DNA of 38,296 nucleotides, taken from the IMG/VR virus record IMGVR_UViG_3300047545_000326, positions 1 to 38,296 of that record, one strand, 5' to 3'. A program made the position numbers and the translations under genes. The stretch comes from a virus (lineage: Duplodnaviria; Caudoviricetes). Positions 12,201 to 38,296 of this stretch are shown piece by piece. The notes beneath the pieces were generated by a model. That model had not been told where the DNA came from and did no database searches. It was given only the letters and a program-made list of their open reading frames with translations. Each line of letters opens with the position of its first letter. The stretch's first letter is position 1.

Positions 12201-12650
12201 TTATATTATTGGTTTATTTAAACGTTTTCTTCTCTCTATTGTAACTATTCGATGACAGTTACAACATCTCACTTCACACTTGGCTATTTCATTAAGCAAT
12301 TTTTCTTCACTCCAAGTTTGGTGGACTCCATGTGAAATATTGCCTAACTTTTTACCTCTGACATGATCGAATTCTAAAACTCTAATGTCAGTGTTACCAC
12401 AATCTACACAAGGATGAGTTTGTAAATATTCAGTTACAATTTGTCTATTTCTATTCTTACAACTTTTTCTATTATTGTAAGATTCTCCACTTTTTCTTTT
12501 TCTTTCAGATCTCTCAAGTTGTCTTTTCTTCTCTGAAGGAATTGTGTGGTATGATATAATTGACATCGAGCAATCCAATATTTCACTAATCTCTTTATAA
12601 GTCTTACCTTCTGATCTCAGTTGTAAGATTTTGTCCTTATACTTACCCAT
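12201..12650 (-). CDS. HNH endonuclease with N-terminal HTH (free-standing, homing-type)
   Basis: HTH GKTYKEISEILDCSMSIISYH plus zinc-binding HNH core CVDC...LEFDH...KCEVRCCNCHR. ATG 12650 is preferred to the track start at 12701. Confidence 0.8.
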   Translation of the reverse strand: MGKYKDKILQLRSEGKTYKEISEILDCSMSIISYHTIPSEKKRQLERSERKRKSGESYNNRKSCKNRNRQIVTEYLQTHPCVDCGNTDIRVLEFDHVRGKKLGNISHGVHQTWSEEKLLNEIAKCEVRCCNCHRIVTIERRKRLNKPII

Positions 12651-12667
12651 ATGTAGTTTTATAATTC

Positions 12668-12818
12668 GCAGAGTGTTCCCACCGAAGGGAGATACAACCA
12701 AGACTTGCCTGGTCTATCACTCTGTAGTTGAGAAGGCTCCCCCACCCTGAAAGTGGGGGGCATTCCTTCCTAGTATTGACGCTTCTTGAGAAGCGGGCCC
12801 AGAGATACTCTCTCTGGG
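12668..12818 (-). other. Cluster of stem-loops immediately 3' of the MCP stop
   Basis: Stems at 12798-12818, 12780-12795 and 12739-12759, plus a three-way junction closed by CAGAGTG/CACTCTG (12669-12675/12718-12724). Confidence 0.45.
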
Positions 12819-15793: not shown

Positions 15794-16324
15794 CTAATCA
15801 AGTTTGTTAATGACAGTGTCATTAATTATCCTGAAGCTTCTGATAGGAGCAAGGTCTGTGAGGGTCACTTGTTGTATCTCCACTCCCCACTTCTTAGCTT
15901 CCACCCTAGCTTTCTTGGTTAGTGTGTTATCAATCTCTGTATCAATACATTCGTCCATTGTTTTGTCCATTACAATGTTCTTAATGATGGACTGGGTCAT
16001 GTCTGATATAGCATCCTGTGCGTCATACACTTCTAGAAGGAATGTTTTAACGTCAGCTATTTTATACTTGACTAACCCTTTTACAACTATGTTTTGTTTG
16101 TCCTTTGTATACAACGATTGAGGAGCCAGACTTAGTGTAGTTACTACAACATGCTGTACAATGATTTCGTCTACAAAGGGTATTTTAAAATACAATCCTG
16201 GAGAGAACGTACTTCTATATTTACCAAACCTAAGTGATACGCCCATTTCGTAGTGACGTATCACAAAGGCTGGTAGAATTTGCTCTATCCAATTCGTTAT
16301 AAATTCTAAGAGTTTATCAAACAT
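15794..16324 (-). CDS. SPFH / Band 7 domain protein
   Basis: VIRHYEMGVSLRFGKY...PGLYFKIPFVDEI...TKDKQNIVV...YKIAD...WGVEIQQVTLTDL is the stomatin/HflK-like SPFH pattern. Confidence 0.85.
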   Translation of the reverse strand: MFDKLLEFITNWIEQILPAFVIRHYEMGVSLRFGKYRSTFSPGLYFKIPFVDEIIVQHVVVTTLSLAPQSLYTKDKQNIVVKGLVKYKIADVKTFLLEVYDAQDAISDMTQSIIKNIVMDKTMDECIDTEIDNTLTKKARVEAKKWGVEIQQVTLTDLAPIRSFRIINDTVINKLD

Positions 16325-29188: not shown

Positions 29189-30403
29189 ATGCCATACTAC
29201 TATGTAAATGTTGAAAACAATCATGTGGGTATCAGTTTACTTGGAGGTGCACAAGAGGCTATAATAGAATGTAAAAATGAAGATTTTAGACATTGTAAAA
29301 TTTGTCATGTAGATTATAGAGCAGTTGATGATACAATTGGAACTTGGGGAGGTGATCCCAAAAGATGGAAGATAAAAGATGTGTTTAACAATCTTCCTGA
29401 CAGTCACGTCTTCAATGTAGGAGATAAGGTGAGACTTAAAAATCTTGTGGATGTTCATCCAGCTATTAAACATGTATACGATGGTCTAAACTTAGGTAAA
29501 ACTTATACAATTAATCTTATTCATTATTATTCAGGATGGAGTAATGAAACATATTCTGTTGTAGGAGTTGAGAGTGGATATGAAGGATGGATTCCACAAG
29601 AATTCTTTGAACTTTACGTAGAAAAGAAAGTTGTAGATGTTGACGATGAAGTAGATTTAGGTGGGCCTCAACCAAAATCTGAAGACAATAGTCCTTTTAA
29701 ACCAGGAGACAGCGTTTGGGTACACAATTATCCAGGCTCTGGAATTCCTCATCCTCTAGATAGAATAGAACAAGTTACAATAATTGATCCTAATCGTCAT
29801 CATGAAGATGATGCCAGTGGTAGTTATGTATGGACACATTTAGTTTTGTTTCAAGGTAGAATTCTTAGACTGGATAACGACAGAGCTAAGTTTTCATACT
29901 ATCATCCAAAGTATTGCACTTCTACTCTTCGTGAACGCTATCCTTATGGAGGCACTATATTCGCTGGTAGTGATAGAGAAGGTAATGGTCTTCCTGATAA
30001 TTGCGTTACTGTCAAAATAGTAAATCCTAGACATGTAAACGATATTATTAAAGGACTGTTATCAACTAATGAATGGGATCATATTGTAGAATATAAAGGC
30101 TCGTATTATCGTATCAACACTCGTACAGCATTTGGTGCAATAAATCCTTGTAAAGAAATTCCACTTCCTGAATATCTTTCTGATACAGGTGGCACAGCAA
30201 TGAAAATTGCTATGGATAGCACTCATGTAAGCTCTGCAGGTTATTGTACAGGAGAATATCCATTTTATTCATCAACTGAAACTACTACTAGTATAATGTA
30301 TCCACAGATTCCAAGTGAAGCCTACCAAACATCTCAATCAAAATTAAAAGCTTTAAAACAACAAAAACCAATCACTTTAAAAACAAAAAAATCATGGAAA
30401 TGA
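29189..30403 (+). CDS. Multidomain hypothetical protein with F.(V/P)GD.V modules
   Basis: 404 aa with FNVGDKVRL and FKPGDSVWV, and an internal repeat V.I..P..H...W.H.V.(F/Y).G...R. Confidence 0.7.
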   Translation: MPYYYVNVENNHVGISLLGGAQEAIIECKNEDFRHCKICHVDYRAVDDTIGTWGGDPKRWKIKDVFNNLPDSHVFNVGDKVRLKNLVDVHPAIKHVYDGLNLGKTYTINLIHYYSGWSNETYSVVGVESGYEGWIPQEFFELYVEKKVVDVDDEVDLGGPQPKSEDNSPFKPGDSVWVHNYPGSGIPHPLDRIEQVTIIDPNRHHEDDASGSYVWTHLVLFQGRILRLDNDRAKFSYYHPKYCTSTLRERYPYGGTIFAGSDREGNGLPDNCVTVKIVNPRHVNDIIKGLLSTNEWDHIVEYKGSYYRINTRTAFGAINPCKEIPLPEYLSDTGGTAMKIAMDSTHVSSAGYCTGEYPFYSSTETTTSIMYPQIPSEAYQTSQSKLKALKQQKPITLKTKKSWK

Positions 30404-30735
30404 GAGAACTATCAAACTTCGTGTCAATCGTATTAGCTAAATTGACAGGTGACAAAGCAACAGAAATTGCTGCTCGTAATGAAAAGAAAGCTCGTGCTGC
30501 CTTAAAAGGACAAATCAGTTCTTTGGAAAGTGAGCAAGTGAATCTTGAAGAAAGAGTGGAAGAGTGCAAGGAAGCATTACAAAATGCTATCTATCGCACA
30601 CAACCAATCACTTCTTCAGAAGCATACATTAATGGTATTGCTGATGCTCAGGAGGATCTAGATGAAGCTGAGGAAGCATTGGAAGATAACAAGAATTCTA
30701 TTGAGTATTACAAGAATCTGTTAGCCAAATTGTAA
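30394..30735 (+). CDS. Coiled-coil hypothetical protein
   Basis: 113 aa, heptad-rich, followed by a hairpin at about 30743-30780. Confidence 0.75.
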   Translation: MEMRELSNFVSIVLAKLTGDKATEIAARNEKKARAALKGQISSLESEQVNLEERVEECKEALQNAIYRTQPITSSEAYINGIADAQEDLDEAEEALEDNKNSIEYYKNLLAKL

Positions 30736-30800
30736 TTTTACTGTCTCCTGCCATTATACAATATGGTGGGAGACTATTTTAATCATCAAAATGTAGACGT

Positions 30801-30941
30801 ATGACAGCAATAGATGCAGCGATAATACTCGTTAAACTAAGAATGAAACCTCGTGGACCAATTAAAACAAAACACCATGAAATTACTCATCCTAAGCGTT
30901 CTGTACTTTATTTTATTGTACGTCGCTTACAAAACCTTTAG
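30801..30941 (+). CDS. Small hypothetical protein (46 aa)
   Basis: Manual translation MTAIDAAIILVKLRMKPRGPIK...RRLQNL*. Confidence 0.4.
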   Translation: MTAIDAAIILVKLRMKPRGPIKTKHHEITHPKRSVLYFIVRRLQNL

Positions 30942-30946
30942 ACACC

Positions 30947-31093
30947 ATGAAAAGAATAACCTTAACCCCTAGCGAATTTTACACATTCAAAGAACTAGCA
31001 AACCAAATTAAACTATTTTTCACTCATTTTGTATCCAAAGGATATGTTATCGTGGATGCAGATGAGCAAGCTCTTAATGGTTTGGGTTATTGA
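30947..31093 (+). CDS. Small hypothetical protein (48 aa)
   Basis: Manual translation MKRITLTPSEFYTFKELANQIKLFFTHFVSKGYVIVDADEQALNGLGY*. Confidence 0.55.
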   Translation: MKRITLTPSEFYTFKELANQIKLFFTHFVSKGYVIVDADEQALNGLGY

Positions 31094-31106
31094 TGGTGAA
31101 TGTGAG

Positions 31107-31146
31107 AAAAACAGCCCTGAAATATGGGCTGTTTTTATTATCTTTG
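31107..31146 (+). promoter_or_regulatory. Terminator-like hairpin followed by a -7 promoter box for the tmRNA
   Basis: AAAAACAGCCC...GGGCTGTTTTT (31107-31136), then TATCTTTG (TAnnTTTG, 31139-31146) 11 nt before the tmRNA 5' end. Confidence 0.55.
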
Positions 31147-31157
31147 TAAAAATTTAT

Positions 31158-31711
31158 GGGCCCGTTACTTGGCATTTGATTTAAATGTGATGGGTATATA
31201 CACATGCAGGCATTTGGGTATACTGCCTTAGAAGATACCAAAAAAACAAACGACAACAACAAAAGTTCTCGTATCGCAGATGGTGCTCGCATCATCAACA
31301 TGGCTTTCGCTAACGCTCCTGTAGCAGTAGCAGCCTAGTCAGGATCGGGGTTGGTAACTGACCTTGTTACCCAATAGTTACATGATGAGTAGTAATACTC
31401 AACCCAGCAATGGGTAGTTGTTATGATACAGTTACAGAGACCAGGTAAGACTAACCTCTGTTATAAAAAGAGACGTGACTGAATGAACAGCGTAAACGAG
31501 TGTTTTCTTAGTTGTACCCTGTTAATAAAAACAACTAGGTGGTGGATCGGACCATAACATGGTCAGCCCTTACGGTGCAGTATCACAATAGCAGAAAGCA
31601 AGTCCCATTATCTGTAGTTTAAAGGGCAGTACGGTGATACAGTACTAAGCATGTGATACGTTGTATATATGTATCCTTTTAAAGACAGCGGTTCGAATCC
31701 GCTCGGGTCCA
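31158..31711 (+). ncRNA. ssrA: tmRNA (transfer-messenger RNA)
   Basis: Acceptor stem GGGCCCG (31158-64)/CGGGTCC (31704-10) with G3:U Ala determinant and discriminator A. T-arm AGCGG-TTCGAAT-CCGCT. Helix 2 pairing CACATGC/GCATGTG. Pseudoknot-1-like AGGCA/TGCCT plus GGTA/TACC. Tag frame 31252-31338 reads DNNKSSRIADGARIINMAFANAPVAVAA*. CCA is not encoded. Confidence 0.92.
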
Positions 31712-31758
31712 CGACAATTCTGTTCAGAATTGTATTTTTTTATTTTATACGCATTTTC

Positions 31759-31787
31759 CCTCTAGTGTATCTACACTGGAGGTTTTT
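31759..31787 (+). terminator. Intrinsic terminator-like hairpin after the tmRNA
   Basis: CCTCTAGTGT-ATCT-ACACTGGAGG-TTTTT. Confidence 0.65.
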
Positions 31788-31812
31788 ATTTTTAACATTA
31801 AAACCAATCAAT

Positions 31813-32190
31813 ATGTCACAAAAACAAAAAGACTATTTAATCATCAACCGTGCCAAATGGAGAACTGGTCAAGATGGTGAAACAGAAACAGGAAAAGGAG
31901 ACACACAGCTTCTTAATAAAGAAGGATATATGTGTTGTCTAGGATTTAGATGTCAACAAATGGGTGTTCCTAGAAAATTATTATTAGAAGAAGGTACTCC
32001 TGGTTGTATTAGAGGTTGGGACATTCCTGATCTTATAGATGATGATGGAGATAATACAGAATTCTCTCAAACAGCTATGGAACTTAATGATGCTCAGGAT
32101 ATGTCACGCATAACACGTGAAAGAAAGATTAAAGCTCATTTTGAAACTATTGGTGTAACAGTTGAATTCATAGGAGACTATAAAAAGTAA
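31813..32190 (+). CDS. Hypothetical protein with MCCLG motif
   Basis: Likely start ATG 31813 (MSQKQKDY...). The track start at 31669 overlaps the tmRNA and terminator. Confidence 0.75.
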   Translation: MSQKQKDYLIINRAKWRTGQDGETETGKGDTQLLNKEGYMCCLGFRCQQMGVPRKLLLEEGTPGCIRGWDIPDLIDDDGDNTEFSQTAMELNDAQDMSRITRERKIKAHFETIGVTVEFIGDYKK

Positions 32191-32214
32191 TTATTCATCA
32201 TTAAATAACACAAA

Positions 32215-32751
32215 ATGAAAAAACCAAATATTGACTATGTCAGTGTCCTTGATGATATTAAGGATATTGACGAGCGCAACAAAGCGTTTGACAAGCTTTC
32301 TAAGGAAGGAAAACGATTAGAAATTGCCTGGGACATGTTAAAACTTCTTATGAGTGGAGTTGTTAAACCTTCAAATGGACATTATTGGAATCCTGAACTG
32401 ATGAGAGTTGCTGATAGTTGCTTCAATTCTAAAGAACTTCAGAAGGAGTTTAATGACAAAAAGAATATCAAAGGATGTTCTGTATGTGCCAGAGGTGGAT
32501 TAATGCTGTCTCAAATAAGACTTGGGAACAGTGTAAATCCTAATGATACATGGTTTAGAGACAAAGGATCTTCTGAAAATCTAAAAGGATTCTCATGGAT
32601 TTCTATGAGAAAAATGGAAAATGAATATGAGCACTGTACATATCGTCATCCATATCGAGACAACACAACTCATAAACTTATGAACATTCTTTGTAATGTT
32701 CTCGTAAATGGAGACTTCAAAGTTTCTGATAAAACAGATTATTTAATTTAA
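32215..32751 (+). CDS. Hypothetical protein with C.VCA.GG motif
   Basis: 178 aa with A-rich leader. Confidence 0.75.
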   Translation: MKKPNIDYVSVLDDIKDIDERNKAFDKLSKEGKRLEIAWDMLKLLMSGVVKPSNGHYWNPELMRVADSCFNSKELQKEFNDKKNIKGCSVCARGGLMLSQIRLGNSVNPNDTWFRDKGSSENLKGFSWISMRKMENEYEHCTYRHPYRDNTTHKLMNILCNVLVNGDFKVSDKTDYLI

Positions 32752-32807
32752 TTTTACAATAAGAGCCATCTTCATCCCCCTCAGGTGGCTCTTTTAAATC
32801 CATTCTC

Positions 32808-32891
32808 ATGTCAAACAACAACAAAATAAACGACATATTAGTAGGGGTGCTATTCTTCCTTTTATTAATTACATTAATTGTCTTATTATGA
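32808..32891 (+). CDS. Small membrane peptide (27 aa)
   Basis: MSNNNKINDILVGVLFFLLLITLIVLL*; ATGA overlap with the gene at 32888. Confidence 0.5.
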   Translation: MSNNNKINDILVGVLFFLLLITLIVLL

Positions 32892-33157
32892 GCATCTACA
32901 TAACACAACAACAGAAAGAAGAGTGGGAGCTTAAGATAAATAGTTTACAATTAGCAGTAAAGACATCTGAAACTGCTCAAGATTATATTAGAGCTGGTTT
33001 AGAACATGCTGAATTAAAAATTTATCAAGAACTTCTATCTAAAACAATAGTGTTACCTGTTGAAGAGAGTTGGGAAGATACCTTAAGTAATACAGAAGTA
33101 ACTGACTGTATCTATTCTAACAAAATGAATTATCCTAACGGAGTAATCATAAAATAA
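32888..33157 (+). CDS. Hypothetical protein
   Basis: 89-aa ORF in the operon. Confidence 0.7.
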   Translation: MSIYITQQQKEEWELKINSLQLAVKTSETAQDYIRAGLEHAELKIYQELLSKTIVLPVEESWEDTLSNTEVTDCIYSNKMNYPNGVIIK

Positions 33158-33162
33158 CAATC

Positions 33163-33753
33163 ATGAAAGCATATCTATACAAACTAAAAGAAGGGTGGGT
33201 ACTTTGTTCTAAAGAGTACATAGAACCAAGCAGCCTTTACTTAAACAACGGTGTATTATTTACTTCTGATTGTACTTATGATGAAGGTAACGACCCTAAT
33301 AGTTCCAATCCAAGAACAACAGATCATAACTATAAAGTCCTCACACAATCACCTGACTTCTCTTTACTATCAGAAGAAGATGCTAAGAGTGTAGGTATTT
33401 ATTACGAACCAGTAGTTGAAGCTATAGATAGAGTCTGGTCCTACTTAAATGCTTTAGGGTACTTTACTAGTCCAACTGATGAAGGTAGAGTTGTTGAGAA
33501 CTTACTTATTCAAGCAAGAATACGTTCACGAGAACTTACAGCAGATAGAAGGTTTACAGAGGAGGATATGATAAACTTTGCTGAGAAGTGCATGGTTATT
33601 TCTAATGAAACTGATACTATAGGTAGACTAAGAAGGTTTATTGAAAAGCAATTTCAATCCCTATCCCAACCTAAATCATGGGAAGTAGAGTATGAGGAAG
33701 TGGGTGGGGTGTATAAGGTGGTTGAAATTATTAAACCGCAATTATTGCAATAA
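33163..33753 (+). CDS. Hypothetical protein; 3' end runs into the cassette-array flank
   Basis: 196 aa; the last codons (from 33734) match sequence at 34884 onward. Confidence 0.7.
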   Translation: MKAYLYKLKEGWVLCSKEYIEPSSLYLNNGVLFTSDCTYDEGNDPNSSNPRTTDHNYKVLTQSPDFSLLSEEDAKSVGIYYEPVVEAIDRVWSYLNALGYFTSPTDEGRVVENLLIQARIRSRELTADRRFTEEDMINFAEKCMVISNETDTIGRLRRFIEKQFQSLSQPKSWEVEYEEVGGVYKVVEIIKPQLLQ

Positions 33754-33791
33754 TCGCATGCCTGTTTATAGCAGGTTATATTCAAAACTTA

Positions 33792-33916
33792 TAACGTAGA
33801 AGTATTGCCGAAGGTGGGGCATTGTACCACTAATGTTTAATTGAAATACAAAACTTGAAAATATGCAAAATGTTGATTTGAAAAACGAAACCCCCACTTT
33901 TGGCAATACAGTGTTA
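33792..33916 (+). repeat. attC-like hairpin element A0
   Basis: TAAC-N6-GTATTGCCGAAGGTGGGG...CCCCACTTTTGGCAATAC-N3-GTTA; 18-bp stem with 2 G:T pairs; ATG 33863 lies in the loop. Confidence 0.8.
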
Positions 33917-34213
33917 CCTGCCGTTTTTTGTCGGGAGGAAGAACAATTAATTGCTAATTATATGGGTGAAGGAGCTGTTGGTGGGTATCATAAAAGTTGG
34001 GACTGGTTAATGCCCGTTGTGGTAAAGATAAACGCTAACGGATTTCACTTTTTTTGGGAAGATTATGTGGTAAAAATATGTAGATGGTCTGACGGCACTG
34101 GAAGCATAAGTAAAGAAAGTTTCTTTAAAAGTGAAGATGCGTTCAAAGCAGTTTATAAATGCGTTGTTGATTTTTTAAAGGAGTGTTACCCTTTTGAGCA
34201 AAATGGCAGGTAA
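33863..34213 (+). CDS. Cassette-borne hypothetical protein (YHKSWDWLMPVV motif)
   Basis: 116 aa; starts inside element A0, and its stop TAA is the TAAC of element A1. Confidence 0.75.
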   Translation: MQNVDLKNETPTFGNTVLPAVFCREEEQLIANYMGEGAVGGYHKSWDWLMPVVVKINANGFHFFWEDYVVKICRWSDGTGSISKESFFKSEDAFKAVYKCVVDFLKECYPFEQNGR

Positions 34214-34337
34214 CGCTTTAGCGGTTGGCGTTCGTTGCCGACTTTGAAACACGAACCTTCACTTAAAAACAAAATTTGATATGGAAAACAACATTGCAAC
34301 AAACCACGAAAACGGCAATGACGCTAACCGCTTGTTA
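34211..34337 (+). repeat. attC-like hairpin element A1
   Basis: TAAC-N5-AGCGGTTGGCGTTCGTTGCCG...CGGCAATGACGCTAACCGCT-T-GTTA; one bulged T and 2 G:T pairs; ATG 34281 lies in the loop. Confidence 0.8.
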
Positions 34338-34481
34338 GCGGTAGTGCCTTGTAAGCGACATAAGCCAAAACAGCTTGAATATGTAGCTTGGCACGAATGG
34401 GCTAATAAAATGTACAAACAAGGTAGAGAGCAAAAACAATGTGATAAATGCGGCAGGTGGTATTTCAAGTCGGAGTTCTGA
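34281..34481 (+). CDS. Cassette-borne small zinc-binding-like protein
   Basis: 66 aa with C..H...WHEWA...QCDKCGRW. Confidence 0.7.
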   Translation: MENNIATNHENGNDANRLLAVVPCKRHKPKQLEYVAWHEWANKMYKQGREQKQCDKCGRWYFKSEF

Positions 34482-34493
34482 TGGCATTACCGC

Positions 34494-34545
34494 TAACACG
34501 CCGATTGACGCAACTCAGTTATACTTTTTAAATTGTCAAAACTTA
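34494..34545. repeat. Array right-boundary site, copy 1 (attI-like candidate)
   Basis: TAACACGCCGATTGACGCAACTCAGTTATACTTTTTAAATTGTCAAAACTTA; 45/52 identical to 37467-37518; no long hairpin. Confidence 0.7.
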
Positions 34546-34630
34546 TAAACAATCCTATCAACAAAATGCTGCTAAATAAGTAAGTTTTAGCGGATAGAAT
34601 GATGATAGAAATAACCAAAATCTTTAACTT

Positions 34631-34867
34631 ATGAAAAAGAAACAGACGGCAGTGCAATGGCTAAGTGAACGGTTAATAGATATACTTGGCGATAAGTGCA
34701 ATAATCTTACGCAAGAGCAAACATTAGCCAATCATTACGCATTTAAACAAGCCCTACAAATGGAACGTAAGCAGATAATAAATTCATATATAAGTGGTGA
34801 TTCAATGGAAGGCAGAGCCAATTTAATTGATGCAGAACAATACTACACCCAAACCTTTAACAAATGA
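34631..34867 (+). CDS. Hypothetical protein (KQTAV.WL...A..ME..QI...AEQYY..TF type)
   Basis: 78 aa; a pattern I associate with Bacteroidota phages. Lies between the two arrays. Confidence 0.75.
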   Translation: MKKKQTAVQWLSERLIDILGDKCNNLTQEQTLANHYAFKQALQMERKQIINSYISGDSMEGRANLIDAEQYYTQTFNK

Positions 34868-34944
34868 AAGACTTAAAACCATCAACCGCAATTATTGGTA
34901 TCTTAATTTGCCTTGCAATAGCAGGTTATATTCAAAACTTGTAA
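34864..34944 (+). CDS. Small hydrophobic peptide (26 aa) forming the left flank of array B
   Basis: MKDLKPSTAIIGILICLAIAGYIQNL*; ATGA overlap with the upstream gene; its stop is the TAAC of element B0. A 5'-truncated homologue lies at 33735-33794. Confidence 0.6.
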   Translation: MKDLKPSTAIIGILICLAIAGYIQNL

Positions 34945-35066
34945 CGTAAAAGCATTGCCGATGGTGGGGCATTGTACCACCGAAGTTTAATTGAAAAACA
35001 AAAGTTCAAAATATGCAAAAAGATAAATTGAAAAACGTCAGCCCCACTATTGGCAATGCAGTGTTA
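34942..35066 (+). repeat. attC-like hairpin element B0 (homologue of A0)
   Basis: GCATTGCCGATGGTGGGGC...GCCCCACTATTGGCAATGC; two compensatory pair changes relative to A0; ATG 35013 lies in the loop. Confidence 0.8.
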
Positions 35067-35381
35067 CCTGCTGCCTTGTCTGTGGATGAAATTATGAAAT
35101 TAAGAAACCAACTCCCTGATAGTTGGAAGTGGCACAAATGCTATGAACTGCCTTATGTCAATTCACGAACTGGCAGAGAGTTTAGTTTGAAGCATTGGGC
35201 ATTAACTGCACCTGATGGCAAAGGTTTGGTTTGTTCGCTTGGTTTAATTAGCCACGACCACCATACCGAAAACCATAAAAAGTTTTTAGATAACGATGTA
35301 CCCGTTGAATGGGTTGAAAAAAGCCTGTTAATCGTTGATAGTCTGCTTGCCGAGATTGAACGTTTGAAAGGTAGCAGTTAA
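35013..35381 (+). CDS. Cassette-borne hypothetical protein
   Basis: 122 aa. The first ~20 residues are homologous to the 33863 protein and the remainder is unrelated. The stop lies in TAAC. Confidence 0.75.
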   Translation: MQKDKLKNVSPTIGNAVLPAALSVDEIMKLRNQLPDSWKWHKCYELPYVNSRTGREFSLKHWALTAPDGKGLVCSLGLISHDHHTENHKKFLDNDVPVEWVEKSLLIVDSLLAEIERLKGSS

Positions 35382-35456
35382 CATTTTGCGGCTTTGCGTC
35401 AGGCTGCGAAGCGTTGGCATTGATCGGTCGGGTAGCTTGCACAAAACCGCCTGTTA
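35379..35456 (+). repeat. attC-like hairpin element B1 (short, 78 bp)
   Basis: TAAC-N5-GCGGCTTTGCGTCAGGCT...AGCTTGCACAAAACCGC-CT-GTTA; imperfect stem with a bulged T. Confidence 0.7.
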
Positions 35457-35495
35457 TACGCTGGCACGGATTATTAACAAGAAAACTTAATTGAA

Positions 35496-35825
35496 ATGAC
35501 AAATTCAGATAAACTACGTGAGCAATTAGCCACAGAAGAAAATGACCTAAAAGCACTTGGGATAGGCAAGCAAATTATTCGTGAAGAAAGAATGGAAAGA
35601 TTTGAGGAAGAATGGTTAGAAAAAATAACCAACTCCCCAAAAGTTACCCAATACCAAATGGCAAATGGTGGTTACATATTTTGGTTTAACGATGGGAATA
35701 TAATAGATGTCTACCCAAAAGCGAATAAGTTGCTTATCCGAAGAAAAAATAAATGGATAAAACCAGCCTTAAAATGGCTAATTGCGGAACTTCATTTGGA
35801 AACAGATGGTAGTGCTTGCGTATAA
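35496..35825 (+). CDS. Cassette-borne hypothetical protein
   Basis: 109 aa with IDVYPKANKLLIR..NKW; the stop lies in TAAC. Confidence 0.75.
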   Translation: MTNSDKLREQLATEENDLKALGIGKQIIREERMERFEEEWLEKITNSPKVTQYQMANGGYIFWFNDGNIIDVYPKANKLLIRRKNKWIKPALKWLIAELHLETDGSACV

Positions 35826-35947
35826 CGTTCAACTCATTGGCGAAGGCGGGATTTCAGGGTACGTCCGCACAGCCTTGCAGAAATGCTAAATAGTAGTACT
35901 CCGTTGAGCATATAGCGTCCAGCCCCGCTTTTGCCAATGAAATGTTG
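35823..35947 (+). repeat. attC-like hairpin element B2
   Basis: TAAC...TCATTGGCGAAGGCGGG...CCCGCTTTTGCCAATGA-AAT-GTTG; 17-bp stem with 2 G:T pairs. Confidence 0.8.
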
Positions 35948-35963
35948 GGCGCAGTTAATTTTT

Positions 35964-36140
35964 ATGTACACAGAACAACAAATTAATGAATGGAAATCTA
36001 AGGCTGAAAAATGGGATGCTTTAGAAAATAAGATTGCGGCATTTTATGTCGATGAAAATGGTGATGAACTTGAAGACGAAGAAGGTGGTGATTTATGTGA
36101 TATAGGCGAAGTTGCCGCAGCAGCGTTTGGGTTTCTTTAA
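35964..36140 (+). CDS. Cassette-borne small acidic protein
   Basis: MYTEQQINEWKSKAEKWDAL...GDLCDIGEVAAAAFGFL*. ATG 35964 is preferred to the track start. Confidence 0.7.
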   Translation: MYTEQQINEWKSKAEKWDALENKIAAFYVDENGDELEDEEGGDLCDIGEVAAAAFGFL

Positions 36141-36147
36141 TTGCGCC

Positions 36148-36593
36148 CAACGTAACGCAAGTAGGCGAAGGTTTAATAAATTTTTGAGCGATGGCATACA
36201 TAAATAAAGAAACAAGAGAAAAAGTTTGGAATAAGTACGATAAAAGATGTGCTTATTGCGGTACTGAATTAGAGTATAAGCAATTGCAAGTTGACCACAT
36301 TGAAGCACATTGGCATAATTGCGAGGAAAATAATTCATACGGAGTTACCAAAGGCAAACACGAATTAGAAAACTTTAATCCGAGTTGTGCGAGATGCAAC
36401 AGATGGAAAGGAACTTTTACTATTGAAGGGTTTAGAAACGAGATACAGCAACAGCTTATACGACTTAAAAGAGATAGTTCTAATTACAGAATGGCACTTG
36501 ATTACAAAATGATTGAAGAAAGCAATAAGCCCATTAAATTCTTCTTTGAGCGATGGGAAGAAAATTTATAAAACTTTTGCTTACTTGCTGTTA
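36148..36593 (+). repeat. attC-like hairpin element B3 with an HNH gene in its loop
   Basis: 28-nt arms at 36157-36184 and 36561-36588 (24 Watson-Crick pairs, 3 G:T, 1 mismatch), flanked by CAAC-N5 and T-GTTA. Confidence 0.8.
36191..36571 (+). CDS. HNH endonuclease
   Basis: RCAYCG...QVDH...NFNPSCARCNRWK zinc-binding HNH motif. Confidence 0.88.
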   Translation: MAYINKETREKVWNKYDKRCAYCGTELEYKQLQVDHIEAHWHNCEENNSYGVTKGKHELENFNPSCARCNRWKGTFTIEGFRNEIQQQLIRLKRDSSNYRMALDYKMIEESNKPIKFFFERWEENL

Positions 36594-36614
36594 TGTTTCC
36601 GTTTCAATGGAACA

Positions 36615-36741
36615 TAACGTTTTGCCGCTTTGCGAAGGCGGGGTATAAATAGCACTAAACTTTAAAATTAGAACGAATGAACATAGAAAGCACAAAACTT
36701 CAAGATAGCACTCAGCCCCCGCTTTTGCAAAACGGCTGTTA
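36615..36741 (+). repeat. attC-like hairpin element B4
   Basis: TAAC-N5-GCCGCTTTGCGAAGGCGGGG...CCCCGCTTTTGCAAAACGGC-T-GTTA. Confidence 0.8.
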
Positions 36742-36809
36742 GGCGATGGCACGGATTAATAGTAGAAACTTAAAAACCTTGTGGTGTAAAGGCGAACCGC
36801 ATATATAAA

Positions 36810-37418
36810 ATGACAAATACACAAAAATTTGCAAAGCAGGAATTAGATATTCTTGCAGCAACAGTTCCAGATGCGATTGTAACGCCTTTCGCAAAAGAAA
36901 TCTTAGCCTTATGTGAGGCATTTGGTAAATCAGGTCAAAGTGGTGGTTCAGCACCATACACCGCATCAGCTATTGCCCAAGCTGTAAAGAAATTGTGCTT
37001 ACAAGAGCCTATTTGTGATGTAACAGGGCACGATGATGAGTGGGTAGATGTTGCAGAGTGGATGGGTGAACCTATGTACCAAAACGCAAGGTGTGGAGGG
37101 TTGTTTAAATACCAAAATGGAAAATGTAGCTACAATGATGCTATCGTTTGGAAGGGTGAAGAAGAGTACGACACTTTTACTGGTAGAGTTTACATTGATG
37201 ATAAAGACTTTGAATTAATTGGAAGTAGCCAATATGCTAAATTCCCATTTAAACCAAAGACATTTTACATTGATGTAGTTCGTGTTCCAATTACAAAAGA
37301 CGAAGCGGAAAAGAGAAACCTTCATTATATTGAAGATGGATTTGGAGAATGTTATTACACGGTATTAAAAGACCCGAAACAACTCGATAAGGTTTTTAAA
37401 TACTATGATAAGAAGTAA
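36810..37418 (+). CDS. Cassette-borne phage-type hypothetical protein (F..SGQSGGSA motif)
   Basis: 202 aa, inside the body 36738-37470. Confidence 0.8.
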   Translation: MTNTQKFAKQELDILAATVPDAIVTPFAKEILALCEAFGKSGQSGGSAPYTASAIAQAVKKLCLQEPICDVTGHDDEWVDVAEWMGEPMYQNARCGGLFKYQNGKCSYNDAIVWKGEEEYDTFTGRVYIDDKDFELIGSSQYAKFPFKPKTFYIDVVRVPITKDEAEKRNLHYIEDGFGECYYTVLKDPKQLDKVFKYYDKK

Positions 37419-37466
37419 ATTAATTGGTAGGCACTATCGGGTTGGCAGTCTGGTAGTGCTTTCGCC

Positions 37467-37518
37467 TAACACGTTCATTTACGCAACTGAATTATACCTT
37501 TTAAATTGTCAAAACTTA
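37467..37518. repeat. Array right-boundary site, copy 2 (attI-like candidate)
   Basis: TAACACGTTCATTTACGCAACTGAATTATACCTTTTAAATTGTCAAAACTTA. Confidence 0.7.
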
Positions 37519-37523
37519 CAACT

Positions 37524-37604
37524 ATGTTAGCCTACACACTTTTAGCCATATATCTTATCTGCTTGTATTTTGCTTATGCAGGCGCAGCAGAAGTAAATGA
37601 TTAA
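37524..37604 (+). CDS. Possible small hydrophobic peptide (26 aa)
   Basis: MLAYTLLAIYLICLYFAYAGAAEVND*, with an A-rich leader supplied by the boundary site. Confidence 0.35.
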   Translation: MLAYTLLAIYLICLYFAYAGAAEVND

Positions 37605-37640
37605 GTTTATTTTCATTGTTATATATTAAAAAAGCCCCGA

Positions 37641-37922
37641 TTAATTTTGGGGCTTTTCTTTTTGCGTTAGCTTAAGGTATTCTTGGTAGCACTGTGTTTT
37701 TGCTTCTTGTAGGGTAGTTGCGGTTGGTGGATTTAGGTAGCTGCTACTCAATATTTCACCGTCTTTTTCTATAACCCATTGATGATAAACACCATTTCCC
37801 GAACCCGCATACAATCTTACCCCATCTATTTCAGTACAATAAAACCCTTCCGAAGATATTACCCACTTTAGTTCTTGCATTTCTGTAAATTTAAGCACCC
37901 GACTTATTAAAATCGGGTGCAT
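37641..37922 (-). CDS. Hypothetical protein
   Basis: 93-aa ORF directly downstream of recA; ends in the bidirectional hairpin AAAAGCCCC...GGGGCTTTT (about 37630-37657). Confidence 0.6.
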   Translation of the reverse strand: MHPILISRVLKFTEMQELKWVISSEGFYCTEIDGVRLYAGSGNGVYHQWVIEKDGEILSSSYLNPPTATTLQEAKTQCYQEYLKLTQKEKPQN

Positions 37923-37927
37923 TTTGG

Positions 37928-38296
37928 TTATAATTTATCGCTTATTTCTTTTATCAATTCTTCGTTTGCCTCCAATAATTCCAATACAGATTCACGACCT
38001 TGACCAAGTTTCATTTCCTTGTAAGAGTACCAACTGCCCGACTTTTTAATTACACCTTTCTCAACAGCAATATCAACTATTTCGCCTAATCTATTAATCC
38101 CTTTGCCATAAATAATATCAAATTCAGCAGTTCTGAAAGGGGGTGCGCATTTATTCTTTACCACCTTAACAACAGTCAAATTACCTAAAATCAAATCTCC
38201 GTCCTTAATTTGAGTTGAACGAGAAACACGAAGCCTCATAGAAGCGTAAAACTGCAAAGCCATACCACCCGTTGTAACTTCAGGGCTGCCATACAT
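37928..38296 (-). CDS. recA: RecA recombinase, 3' part (5' end outside the window)
   Basis: [20 protein letters not shown]...[21 protein letters not shown]...KKSGSWYSY...LGQGRE are clear RecA C-terminal motifs. Confidence 0.95.

What the first reader, a model, noticed from the sequence alone, without database searches (positions are those of the whole stretch)
33792..37518. Phage-borne integron-like gene cassette system with body-specific terminal inverted repeats
SEEN: seven hairpin elements bounded by (T/C)AAC and GTT(A/G) (33792-33916, 34211-34337, 34942-35066, 35379-35456, 35823-35947, 36148-36593, 36615-36741) strictly alternate with seven bodies. Each body's two ends are reverse complements of each other but not of neighbouring bodies: GTTACCTGCCGTTTT/AAAATGGCAGGTAAC (33913/34214), GTTAGCGGTAGTGCC/GGCATTACCGCTAAC (34334/34497), GTTACCTGCTGCC/GGTAGCAGTTAAC (35063/35382), GTTATACGCTGGCAC/GTGCTTGCGTATAAC (35453/35826), GTTGGGCGCAGTTAA/TTAATTGCGCCCAAC (35944/36151), GTTATGTTTCC/GGAACATAAC (36590/36618), GTTAGGCGATGGCAC/GTGCTTTCGCCTAAC (36738/37470). 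Stop codons often coincide with the TAAC. KNOWN: in integron cassettes the GTTRRRY at the start and RYYYAAC at the end of one cassette pair only in the excised circle, completing the folded attC used by IntI tyrosine recombinases. INFERENCE: these are excisable single-gene cassettes that let a phage reshuffle accessory genes. The outer pairing (13-15 bp in most bodies) is about twice the 7-bp R box, and no integrase is in the window, so the enzyme would act in trans from elsewhere on the phage or from the host.
Basis: partly seen in the sequence, partly recalled or inferred. Interest (0 to 1): 0.92.

Follow-up and report, generated by a model that had tools for sequence, protein, structure and literature searches.

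The report
Phage integron-like array carrying anti-defence gene
This crAss-like phage fragment carries two rows of small gene units joined by DNA hairpins; the same units turn up with exact borders in other phages, one encodes a relative of a protein that blocks a bacterial immune system, and they are likely moved by an unusual integron-type enzyme that other phages and host bacteria encode but this fragment lacks.

Summary
Confirmed, with corrections. There are two arrays (33792-34497, 34942-37470), not one. Each body's ends pair over 15 bp with a fixed G·T at position 11 (6 of 6 gene-bearing bodies; permutation p=1/5040). The Tad3 (anti-Thoeris) body recurs in 21 distinct contexts with exact borders and compensatory end changes. 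Syntenic phages gain or lose whole units at TAA|C. The usual unit is hairpin plus downstream gene, so the genes face opposite to those of the matching Bacteroidota chromosomal arrays; hairpins are also swapped at the other end. The cognate enzyme is a tyrosine recombinase close to IntI but lacking the IntI insertion: 31 of 31 phage copies with enough flank sit directly behind such arrays, and 39 of 121 Bacteroidota genomes encode one. This fragment (33% complete) and 25 capsid relatives have none, so it would act in trans. No circles were seen and no activity was tested. It works like an integron but fails two defining IntI/attC tests. Print holds only fragments (a Polaribacter phage CALIN; a Riemerella gene insertion). 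The scan noted this system before on other DNA (17 findings).

The parts
33734..33795 (+). Left flank of array 1: truncated copy of a small-peptide gene ending in TAA|C; a platform sequence shared by many contigs
   Evidence: 81% identity to 34884-35090 over 207 nt; translation; depth spike and many alternative neighbours in 4 of 4 runs
33792..33916 (+). Hairpin site 1 (125 nt, offset 3)
33913..34214 (+). Body 1; ORF 33863-34213 starts inside hairpin 1 and stops at the TAA of TAAC; no family match
   Evidence: hairpin 1 + body 1 occur together in another context, ending at 34214, in run X5
34211..34337 (+). Hairpin site 2 (127 nt, offset 4)
   Evidence: other up- and downstream neighbours in runs X4-X6
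34334..34497 (+). Body 2; ORF 34281-34481 (66 aa) starts inside hairpin 2; no family match
34494..34550 (+). Terminal half-site of array 1 (attI-like by position only)
   Evidence: 86% alike to 37466-37521; joined to the left flank around other content in 4 of 4 runs; does not match the integrase-linked attI matrix, rank 230 of 741
34631..34944 (+). Inter-array genes: 78-aa ORF 34631-34867 and 26-aa hydrophobic ORF 34864-34944, whose stop is the TAA of hairpin 3 (left flank of array 2)
   Evidence: sequence read directly
34942..35066 (+). Hairpin site 3 (125 nt, offset 3)
   Evidence: (z -4.5)
35063..35382 (+). Body 3; ORF 35013-35381 (122 aa) starts inside hairpin 3; no family match
35379..35456 (+). 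Hairpin site 4 (78 nt, degenerate)
   Evidence: joined directly to the left flank in run X3
35453..35826 (+). Body 4; ORF 35496-35825 (109 aa); no family match
   Evidence: same body with exact borders in L163 (89%) and L164/L165 (78%, compensatory ends)
35823..35947 (+). Hairpin site 5 (125 nt, offset 4)
   Evidence: 91% identical over 137 nt to L014, the match running into the downstream arm; upstream context differs
35944..36151 (+). Body 5; short acidic ORF ending 36140; no family match
36148..36593 (+). Hairpin site 6 with an HNH endonuclease gene (36191-36571) in its loop: inside-out cassette
   Evidence: 28-nt arms; PF01844, phrog_2118; a contig of run X4 joins the arms without the gene; second such case in L163
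36590..36618 (+). Empty 29-nt body
36615..36741 (+). Hairpin site 7 (127 nt, offset 4)
36738..37470 (+). Body 7 carrying a Tad3-family gene (36810-37418), homologue of a type I Thoeris inhibitor
   Evidence: PF25185 at 84 bits vs cut-off 27; PDB 9b7d_B E 8.9e-30; 21 distinct contexts
37467..37604 (+). Terminal half-site of array 2; its ATG lies 53 nt after TAAC (the spacing of integrase-linked sites) but opens a 26-aa ORF, not an integrase
   Evidence: matrix rank 80 of 741; an ATG at 51-53 nt follows 5% of the window's YAAC sites by chance

Best explanation
The region is two arrays of gene cassettes of an integron-like system of Bacteroidota and their phages, and the cassettes are likely cut and joined at TAA|C by an IntI-related tyrosine recombinase that would have to come from the host or another phage. 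SHOWN (sequence and comparison): each unit is a hairpin plus the gene behind it; units are gained, lost and exchanged between phages with exact borders; the unit's two ends form a 15-bp arm with a G·T at position 11, and the hairpin stem has G·T pairs 12 and 15 bases from the GTT; phage genes lie on the G·T strand and bacterial genes on the other; phage copies of the recombinase sit behind a conserved non-hairpin site at the array end. INFERRED: the coding strand folds as single-stranded DNA, the body arm and the hairpin arm each bind one recombinase subunit, the strand is cut at AA|C, the unit leaves as a dumbbell-shaped circle and re-enters at the terminal site or at another hairpin. The G·T pairs and the lopsided spacer would replace the flipped-out bases of attC in choosing the strand, less strictly, which would explain why hairpins are also swapped at the GTT end. 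The likely benefit to the phage is a swappable stock of accessory genes, here including a Tad3-family anti-Thoeris protein.
For: End pairing. Architecture in 33 viral and 85 bacterial bodies (body ends were not used to detect sites): positions 5-9 complementary in 0.88-1.0 and 0.78-0.87, position 11 in 0.03 and 0.01, positions 12-15 in 0.73-0.88 and 0.64-0.71, position 16 in 0.15; position 11 is G·T in 26 of 33 and 57 of 85; one stem pair is G·T in 64 of 67 aligned sites. Mobility: Tad3 body in 21 distinct contexts, 11 upstream vs 20 downstream neighbour types, 22 of 210 pairs share the upstream side and 1 of 210 the downstream side; both ends change together in blocks. Homology starts and stops at AAC in L190/L191, L147/L172, L149/L173, L150/L185, L164/L165. 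Precise gain/loss of a unit in L164 vs L165 and L173 vs L174. The window's own flanks enclose other content in 4 of 4 runs from 2 studies. Enzyme: 31 of 31 phage copies with >1.5 kb upstream have sites within 3 kb upstream, 0 of 31 downstream, 92 vs 3 in the window's orientation; 42 of 42 have YAAC 51-53 nt before the ATG with a shared motif, whose reverse complement precedes bacterial arrays. Catalytic R, H, R, H and Y columns invariant in 10 of 10. Enzyme in 39 of 121 Bacteroidota genomes; sites in 16 of 19 enzyme-positive vs 17 of 40 enzyme-negative genomes (Fisher p=0.004, relatedness not corrected). Removing extrahelical bases relaxes strand choice in attC (PMC5027507).
Against: No circular junction appeared in either read call (contigs only, and 6 joints were not shown). 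No enzyme in the window or in 25 capsid relatives, and the fetched parts of 8 relatives hold no sites at all, so the arrays are a recent import and may be inert here. The window's terminal half-sites do not match the integrase-linked attI motif (ranks 80 and 230 of 741). The unit rule is not strict: among Tad3 contexts with >=95% identical bodies only 2 of 11 pairs kept the upstream side by a 30-nt ungapped test (this test split L179 from its family), and L172/L173/L174 have 99-100% identical bodies with three different upstream hairpins; homologous recombination could do this too. Sites occur in 17 of 40 genomes without a detected enzyme. A short hairpin of this family from phage P12002L did not recombine with IntI1 x attI1 (PMC9892861), and nobody has tested the cognate enzyme. 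Stem covariation is partly circular because sites were selected for arm pairing.
Confidence: 0.84

Rival explanations
1. The arrays were built by the recombinase elsewhere, came into this phage as one block, and are now reshuffled only by RecA or phage recombination at the short conserved arms, or not at all.
For: No enzyme in the window or in 25 capsid relatives; relatives lack the region; left flank 1 is a truncated gene copy, as at a recombination junction; a recA gene is next door; upstream hairpin swaps begin within similar right arms.
Against: Strains in runs X3-X6 keep the same flanks with other cassettes between them; L164/L165 differ by exact units although no tyrosine recombinase was found in either record, one of them complete; neighbours diverge right after the AAC, with no shared stretch for homologous exchange.
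Confidence: 0.1
2. An ordinary CALIN: classical attC sites used by a classical IntI.
For: Same RYYYAAC/GTTRRRY cores and 120-130-nt size as sedentary-integron sites; the linked enzymes score on TIGR02249 and end in the SPL motif of IntI4; the P12002L terminal half-site recombined with attI1 under IntI1 (PMC9892861).
Against: Linked enzymes are below the TIGR02249 cut-off in 8 of 8 (170-209 vs 265 bits) and bridge IntI4 residues 180-239 with 18 positions, losing K209, Y210, W219 and P232 that contact the extrahelical bases; the stems pair without a gap in nearly all of 67 sites; a family hairpin failed with IntI1.
Confidence: 0.03
3. The hairpins are RNA-level elements (terminators, RNase III or translation-control stems), or the bodies are small transposon-like elements with their own terminal repeats.
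For: The better-folding strand is the coding strand in phages (56 of 65); 44 of 144 ORFs start inside a hairpin; body ends look like terminal inverted repeats.
Against: In bacteria the same hairpins lie on the non-coding strand (71 of 76 informative bodies); an invariant AAC/GTT core and fixed linkage to a tyrosine recombinase and its terminal site are not needed by RNA elements; no target duplications or transposase; no Rfam match in the arrays.
Confidence: 0.03

Closest known systems
Integrons (IntI, attI, attC cassettes), sedentary chromosomal integrons and CALINs
   Same: RYYYAAC...GTTRRRY hairpin sites of about 125 nt; direct orientation in arrays (34 of 34 adjacent viral pairs, 85 of 87 bacterial); self-complementary cassette ends; one strand folds better through G·T pairs; in phages the enzyme gene points away from a non-hairpin terminal site and the array, as intI does.
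   Different: [quoted passage not shown]
CALIN of Polaribacter phage P12002L (Qi et al. 2023, PMC9892861)
   Same: Same site family and orientation to genes; identical terminal half-sites end two of its arrays; anti-defence cargo (methyltransferases there, Tad3 here); no tyrosine recombinase found in the genome.
   Different: The paper treats the sites as ordinary attC; it reports two sites in divergent directions, which are a family hairpin (no recombination with IntI1) and the reverse complement of the terminal half-site (recombined). In the parts read it names no cognate enzyme, geometry or bacterial counterpart.
Homology-independent insertion of aph(3')-IVb in Riemerella anatipestifer (PMC13148043)
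   Same: A Bacteroidota gene enters as 27 bp + gene + 140 bp attC-like stem-loop, the size expected for body + downstream hairpin in the bacterial orientation; a supplement primer begins with a GTT arm having G at position 11.
   Different: Mechanism left open by the authors; I could not see the 140-bp sequence (a figure), so membership is a lead only.
XerA-like recombinases (NF040815) and XerC/XerD
   Same: Best profile match; 2 of 8 bacterial enzymes pass the NF040815 cut-off; uninterrupted alignment to archaeal Xer structures.
   Different: Phage and array-linked bacterial enzymes group apart from host XerC/D (100/100; no XerA or IntI in that tree) and are tied to cassette arrays.

Membership tests
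Integron (classical) | Tyrosine recombinase with the IntI-specific additional domain | tested here: not met
   Profile positions 190-209 span IntI4 179-240; below TIGR02249 cut-off in 8 of 8; no enzyme in the window
Integron (classical) | attC with RYYYAAC and GTTRRRY cores around an inverted repeat, 57-141 bp | tested here: met
   6 of 7 window sites are 78-127 nt; the seventh has a gene in its loop; definition from PMC3053210
Integron (classical) | Extrahelical bases in the folded attC | tested here: not met
   18 stem pairs align without a gap in nearly all of 67 sites; window site 2 has one extra base; detection used ungapped arms, so bulged variants are under-sampled
Integron (classical) | Bottom strand folds better and crossover lies at its AA|C | tested here: met
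   Lower energy in 56 of 65 viral and 155 of 216 bacterial sites; unit borders at AA|C of that strand. Comparative, not biochemical.
Integron (classical) | attI next to the integrase gene | tested here: inconclusive
   Met for the system (42 of 42 phage enzymes; bacterial counterparts); window half-sites fit by position but not by motif
Integron (classical) | Cassette genes on the top strand, upstream of their attC | tested here: not met
   28 of 29 informative viral bodies are inverted; 71 of 76 bacterial bodies follow the rule
Integron (classical) | Integrase-dependent excision as circles and insertion at attI | not testable with these tools
   No circle junction in contigs; needs raw reads or an assay
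CALIN | Two or more sites recognised by the attC covariance model, no nearby intI | not testable with these tools
   IntegronFinder model not available; absence of an enzyme met
Tad3 (PF25185) | Sequence family match above curated cut-off | tested here: met
   84 bits vs 27; 9b7d_B E 8.9e-30 over residues 22-201
Tad3 (PF25185) | Binds and inhibits ThsB | not tested
   Known for the founding protein (PMC13728456 passages); not tested for this homologue
Crassvirales-like phage | Crassvirus capsid and ring proteins | tested here: met
   PF23898, PF24228, PF25702 above cut-off; CheckV 33% complete

The most novel reading that the evidence does not exclude
Bacteroidota and their phages run a second, largely unseen integron lineage. 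Its recombinase lacks the IntI insertion and reads a two-fold symmetric site marked by G·T pairs instead of flipped-out bases; it uses both strands, so genes and hairpins assort almost independently and a gene may sit in either loop of the circle. Phages have their own clade of the enzyme and keep their cassettes inverted, giving an anti-defence library separate from the host's library, which lytic crAss-like phages tap without encoding the enzyme. The bacterial branch is a source of resistance genes such as tet(X3) and aph(3')-IVb.
Probability: 0.4. Interest if true: 0.93.

Novelty: new variant of a known kind. Interest (0 to 1): 0.82.

Why it matters
IntegronFinder 2.0 reported one complete integron in Bacteroidetes proper (PMC9024848), yet these sites are in 34 of 60 sampled genomes and the enzyme in 39 of 121, so a phylum-wide cassette system may have been missed. 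Complete phage-encoded versions exist, and cassettes carry anti-defence genes between unrelated phages: the mirror image of integrons as stores of anti-phage genes. An enzyme that handles folded single strands without the IntI insertion would test how integron chemistry arose from Xer-type enzymes. It also offers a testable mechanism for unexplained homology-independent gene uptake in Riemerella and for the origin of the tet(X3) unit.

Tried and rejected
Search of cultured phages with the array DNA found only HNH homologues (8 records); the annotation around the Gundel_1 HNH shows ordinary genes and no repeat feature (not scanned for hairpins). No cultured phage had the phage enzyme at E<=1e-40. 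Exact patterns for the left and right flanks found nothing in viral contigs, and the left-flank pattern nothing in metagenome contigs; ORF 32215-32751 had no viral relative. Rfam gave only a tmRNA, ARAGORN nothing. An empty left-flank/right-flank junction was sought: all such joints have unknown content between. Circle junctions: none listed; contigs drop rare forms, so this is no evidence. Window half-sites as members of the integrase-linked attI family: rejected by matrix score. The idea that 34498-34941 is itself a cassette: partial end pairing only, lacks the G·T rule, GTT absent in copy 2 (read); rejected. Chimeric assembly: capsid relatives lack 30300-38296 and carry recA (38-48% identical) on the other strand, farther away. 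Against a chimera, error-free contigs bridge the junction at 33734 in the best-holding sample and in runs X4 and X5 of another study, and X4 holds the left region, both flanks and recA at depths 45-100; no contig spans the whole region, so it is not excluded (about 10%). No structure or complex prediction was run. PMC13616975 and PMC8618304 passages added nothing on this family.

Full report
Context. The window is a 38.3-kb fragment, 33% complete by CheckV, of a crAss-like phage: Crassvirus capsid, ring proteins, portal and terminase, and a tmRNA at 31158-31714. The best-holding runs are freshwater and wastewater metagenomes. The host is unknown; Bacteroidota is inferred from the phage group and from where the sites occur.

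Observation. The seven elements and seven bodies are as quoted. Own-body pairing beats all other assignments (1 of 5040), and 6 of the 7 best of 3517 GTTR...YAAC pairs in the window are these bodies. Three things were missed. There are two arrays, each closed on the right by a non-hairpin half-site (34494 and 37467) and opened on the left by the end of a small-peptide gene. All seven hairpins are lopsided in the same sense, by 3-4 nt. All six gene-bearing bodies have a G·T at position 11 of a 15-bp arm.

The family. A pattern from the window found 24 viral loci and 122 genome loci from 9 of 64 parts of the collection; 76 of the 80 titles shown are Bacteroidota. With a detector that uses only the hairpin arms (shuffled background 3 hits at score >=13 in 0.63 Mb, against 316 in 1.24 Mb), 36 viral and 121 bacterial loci (duplicates dropped) gave 33 and 85 bodies. 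Both sets show the same arm: high pairing at 1-9, near zero at 11, high at 12-15, background from 16. Position 11 is G·T in 26 of 33 and 57 of 85; the stem has G·T 12 and 15 bases from the GTT (64 of 67 for the outer one). These mispairs were not rewarded by the detector. Neighbouring sites are co-oriented in 34 of 34 and 85 of 87 pairs. Phage genes lie on the G·T strand (28 of 29 informative bodies, 4 unclear); bacterial genes lie on the other (71 of 76, 9 unclear).

What moves. The Tad3 protein fetched 15 viral and 67 metagenome loci. Of these 82, 27 had both borders with flank; with the window they reduce to 21 distinct contexts. The others were truncated, distant homologues outside cassettes, or had lost an end. 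Ends change in pairs: four-base blocks differ at both ends together between the two main variants, and likewise for body 4. Upstream neighbours fall into 11 types and downstream into 20; 22 of 210 pairs share the upstream side and 1 of 210 the downstream side. In five locus pairs homology starts at the AAC before the hairpin and ends at the AAC after the gene. L164 vs L165 and L173 vs L174 differ by exactly one such unit. A wider test on 125 bodies with full hairpins on both sides gave 3 pairs keeping only the upstream hairpin, 0 only the downstream, 22 neither and 20 both. So the usual unit is hairpin + downstream gene, cut at TAA|C. The rule leaks: L172, L173 and L174 have 99-100% identical bodies and three different upstream hairpins. 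In reads, the window's left and right flanks enclose other content in 4 of 4 runs; run X3 joins the left flank to hairpin 4 and body 4 to the array-1 half-site, on separate contigs of like depth; run X5 holds hairpin 1 + body 1 in another context. These joints were called at 88-90% likeness and may come from other phages sharing the platform.

The enzyme. Bacterial loci hold a tyrosine recombinase that matches the integron-integrase profile in two pieces, below cut-off in 8 of 8. Against IntI4 it bridges residues 180-239 with 18 positions, the stretch that holds several contacts to the extrahelical bases (PMC3053210, passages). Of 34 viral records behind the loci, 6 have a tyrosine recombinase (4 of 11 near-complete), 3 of them of this family and directly behind an array. 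A search with those three gave 52 loci; I left out 7 (2 partial, 5 at 21% identity). Of the other 45, which include the three query loci, 31 had over 1.5 kb upstream: 31 of 31 have sites upstream, 0 of 31 downstream. After dropping 3 near-duplicates, 42 of 42 have YAAC 51-53 nt before the start codon, followed by a shared motif, and its reverse complement precedes most of the ten bacterial arrays inspected by eye. This is the attI analogue. Phage enzymes form one group (99/95) beside the bacterial ones and apart from XerC/D (phage rows were found with a phage query; no IntI or XerA included; long branches flagged). The enzyme is in 39 of 121 Bacteroidota genomes. A covariance model found sites in 34 of 60 of them (half of the sample; 58 candidates scored per genome): 16 of 19 enzyme-positive and 17 of 40 enzyme-negative, the centre genome aside.

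This phage. No tyrosine recombinase in the window. Twenty-five of the 80 capsid relatives kept (95-98% identity; the longer records chosen) have no family enzyme and no real DNA match to 30300-38296; the fetched stretches of 8 have no sites. The arrays are thus an import into this lineage, and any enzyme acts in trans unless it lies in the missing two thirds. The half-sites sit where attI sits, and copy 2 has the 53-nt spacing, but they do not match the attI motif; they are a different terminal site.

Mechanism (inferred). By analogy with attC, where cleavage is in the AAC of the folded bottom strand and G·T pairs favour that strand (PMC5027507, passages), the phage coding strand is the substrate. 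Counting from a 6-7-nt spacer behind the cut, the body G·T and the inner stem G·T fall at about the same distance in the two arms, as for a two-fold symmetric binding site; this is my reading, not a tested result. Removing extrahelical bases from attC lets both strands recombine, which would account for hairpin swaps at the GTT end; homologous recombination is the alternative. A circle has two loops, and the HNH gene in the loop of site 6 with an empty body behind it, matched by a 48-aa ORF in L163 (the only such site in 2.0 Mb of strands, none in shuffles), suggests that either loop can carry the gene.

Cargo. Of six body genes only the last has a family: Tad3, whose founding member binds ThsB and blocks type I Thoeris (PMC13728456, passages). 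Activity of this homologue is untested.

What is in print. Qi et al. 2023 (PMC9892861; parts 2-4 of 7 and supplement rows read) report 17 phage CALINs. One, in Polaribacter phage P12002L, is this family: its attC1 is a family hairpin and failed with IntI1; its attC2 is the reverse complement of the terminal half-site and recombined with attI1, the reported junctions having the expected G|TT. PMC13148043 (passages, section 11, supplement search) shows homology-independent insertion of gene + 140-bp attC-like stem-loop in Riemerella; its figure S6 was not visible to me. IntegronFinder 2.0 (PMC9024848, passages) found one complete integron in Bacteroidetes proper. PMC8618304 and PMC13616975 were seen as passages only. 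Ten searches found no description of the enzyme family, the site geometry or inverted phage cassettes; the library lacks most subscription journals, and bioRxiv supplements were closed. Earlier notes of this scan describe the same system on other DNA (17 findings, 8 shown); they are not independent support. I had noted the inverted orientation before reading them; the lead to phage-encoded enzymes came from them.

Verdict. Real, and it works like an integron cassette array (0.84). It is not a classical integron: the IntI insertion and the extrahelical bases were tested and are absent, and the genes are inverted. New variant of a known kind; interest 0.82.

Noticed in passing
L410:4004-6140 (NZ_CP045136.1, Acinetobacter plasmid): tet(X3) lies behind a short recombinase ORF that groups with this family, starts just after a GTTA and is followed by TAAC and a truncated family hairpin; the 121 nt at its end are >=99% identical in 50 plasmid records. 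Suggests that the tet(X3) unit came from this cassette system.
   Followed up: partly
window 31158-31714: tmRNA gene just at the Rfam cut-off (47.5 vs 47 bits), missed by ARAGORN.
   Followed up: no
window 37928-38296: recA fragment on the minus strand, only 38-48% identical to the recA of capsid relatives, which lies on the other strand and farther from the structural genes: a different replication module or an assembly join.
   Followed up: partly
L418 (G106:C33:372500-388500): An identical 53-nt short site followed by an identical body of about 75 nt recurs five times in one bacterial array, like a spacer cassette.
   Followed up: no
L416 (G074:C12:207500-227400): A 20-kb chromosomal array of 21 similar sites directly behind the recombinase gene, like a Vibrio superintegron.
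   Followed up: partly
L008 and L191: Minimal empty bodies of 12 and 8 nt between GTT and AAC.
   Followed up: no
L151, L152, L154, L156-L160, L187: Tad3 homologues outside cassettes or with decayed ends, showing that genes leave or enter the cassette form.
   Followed up: partly
window 12201-12701 and 15794-16324: An HNH endonuclease next to the capsid gene and an SPFH/Band 7 protein next to the portal.
   Followed up: no
L047:1612-2622 and L062: A second, divergent recombinase subgroup on long branches near sites; in L047 it is paired with an overlapping ORF downstream.
   Followed up: no
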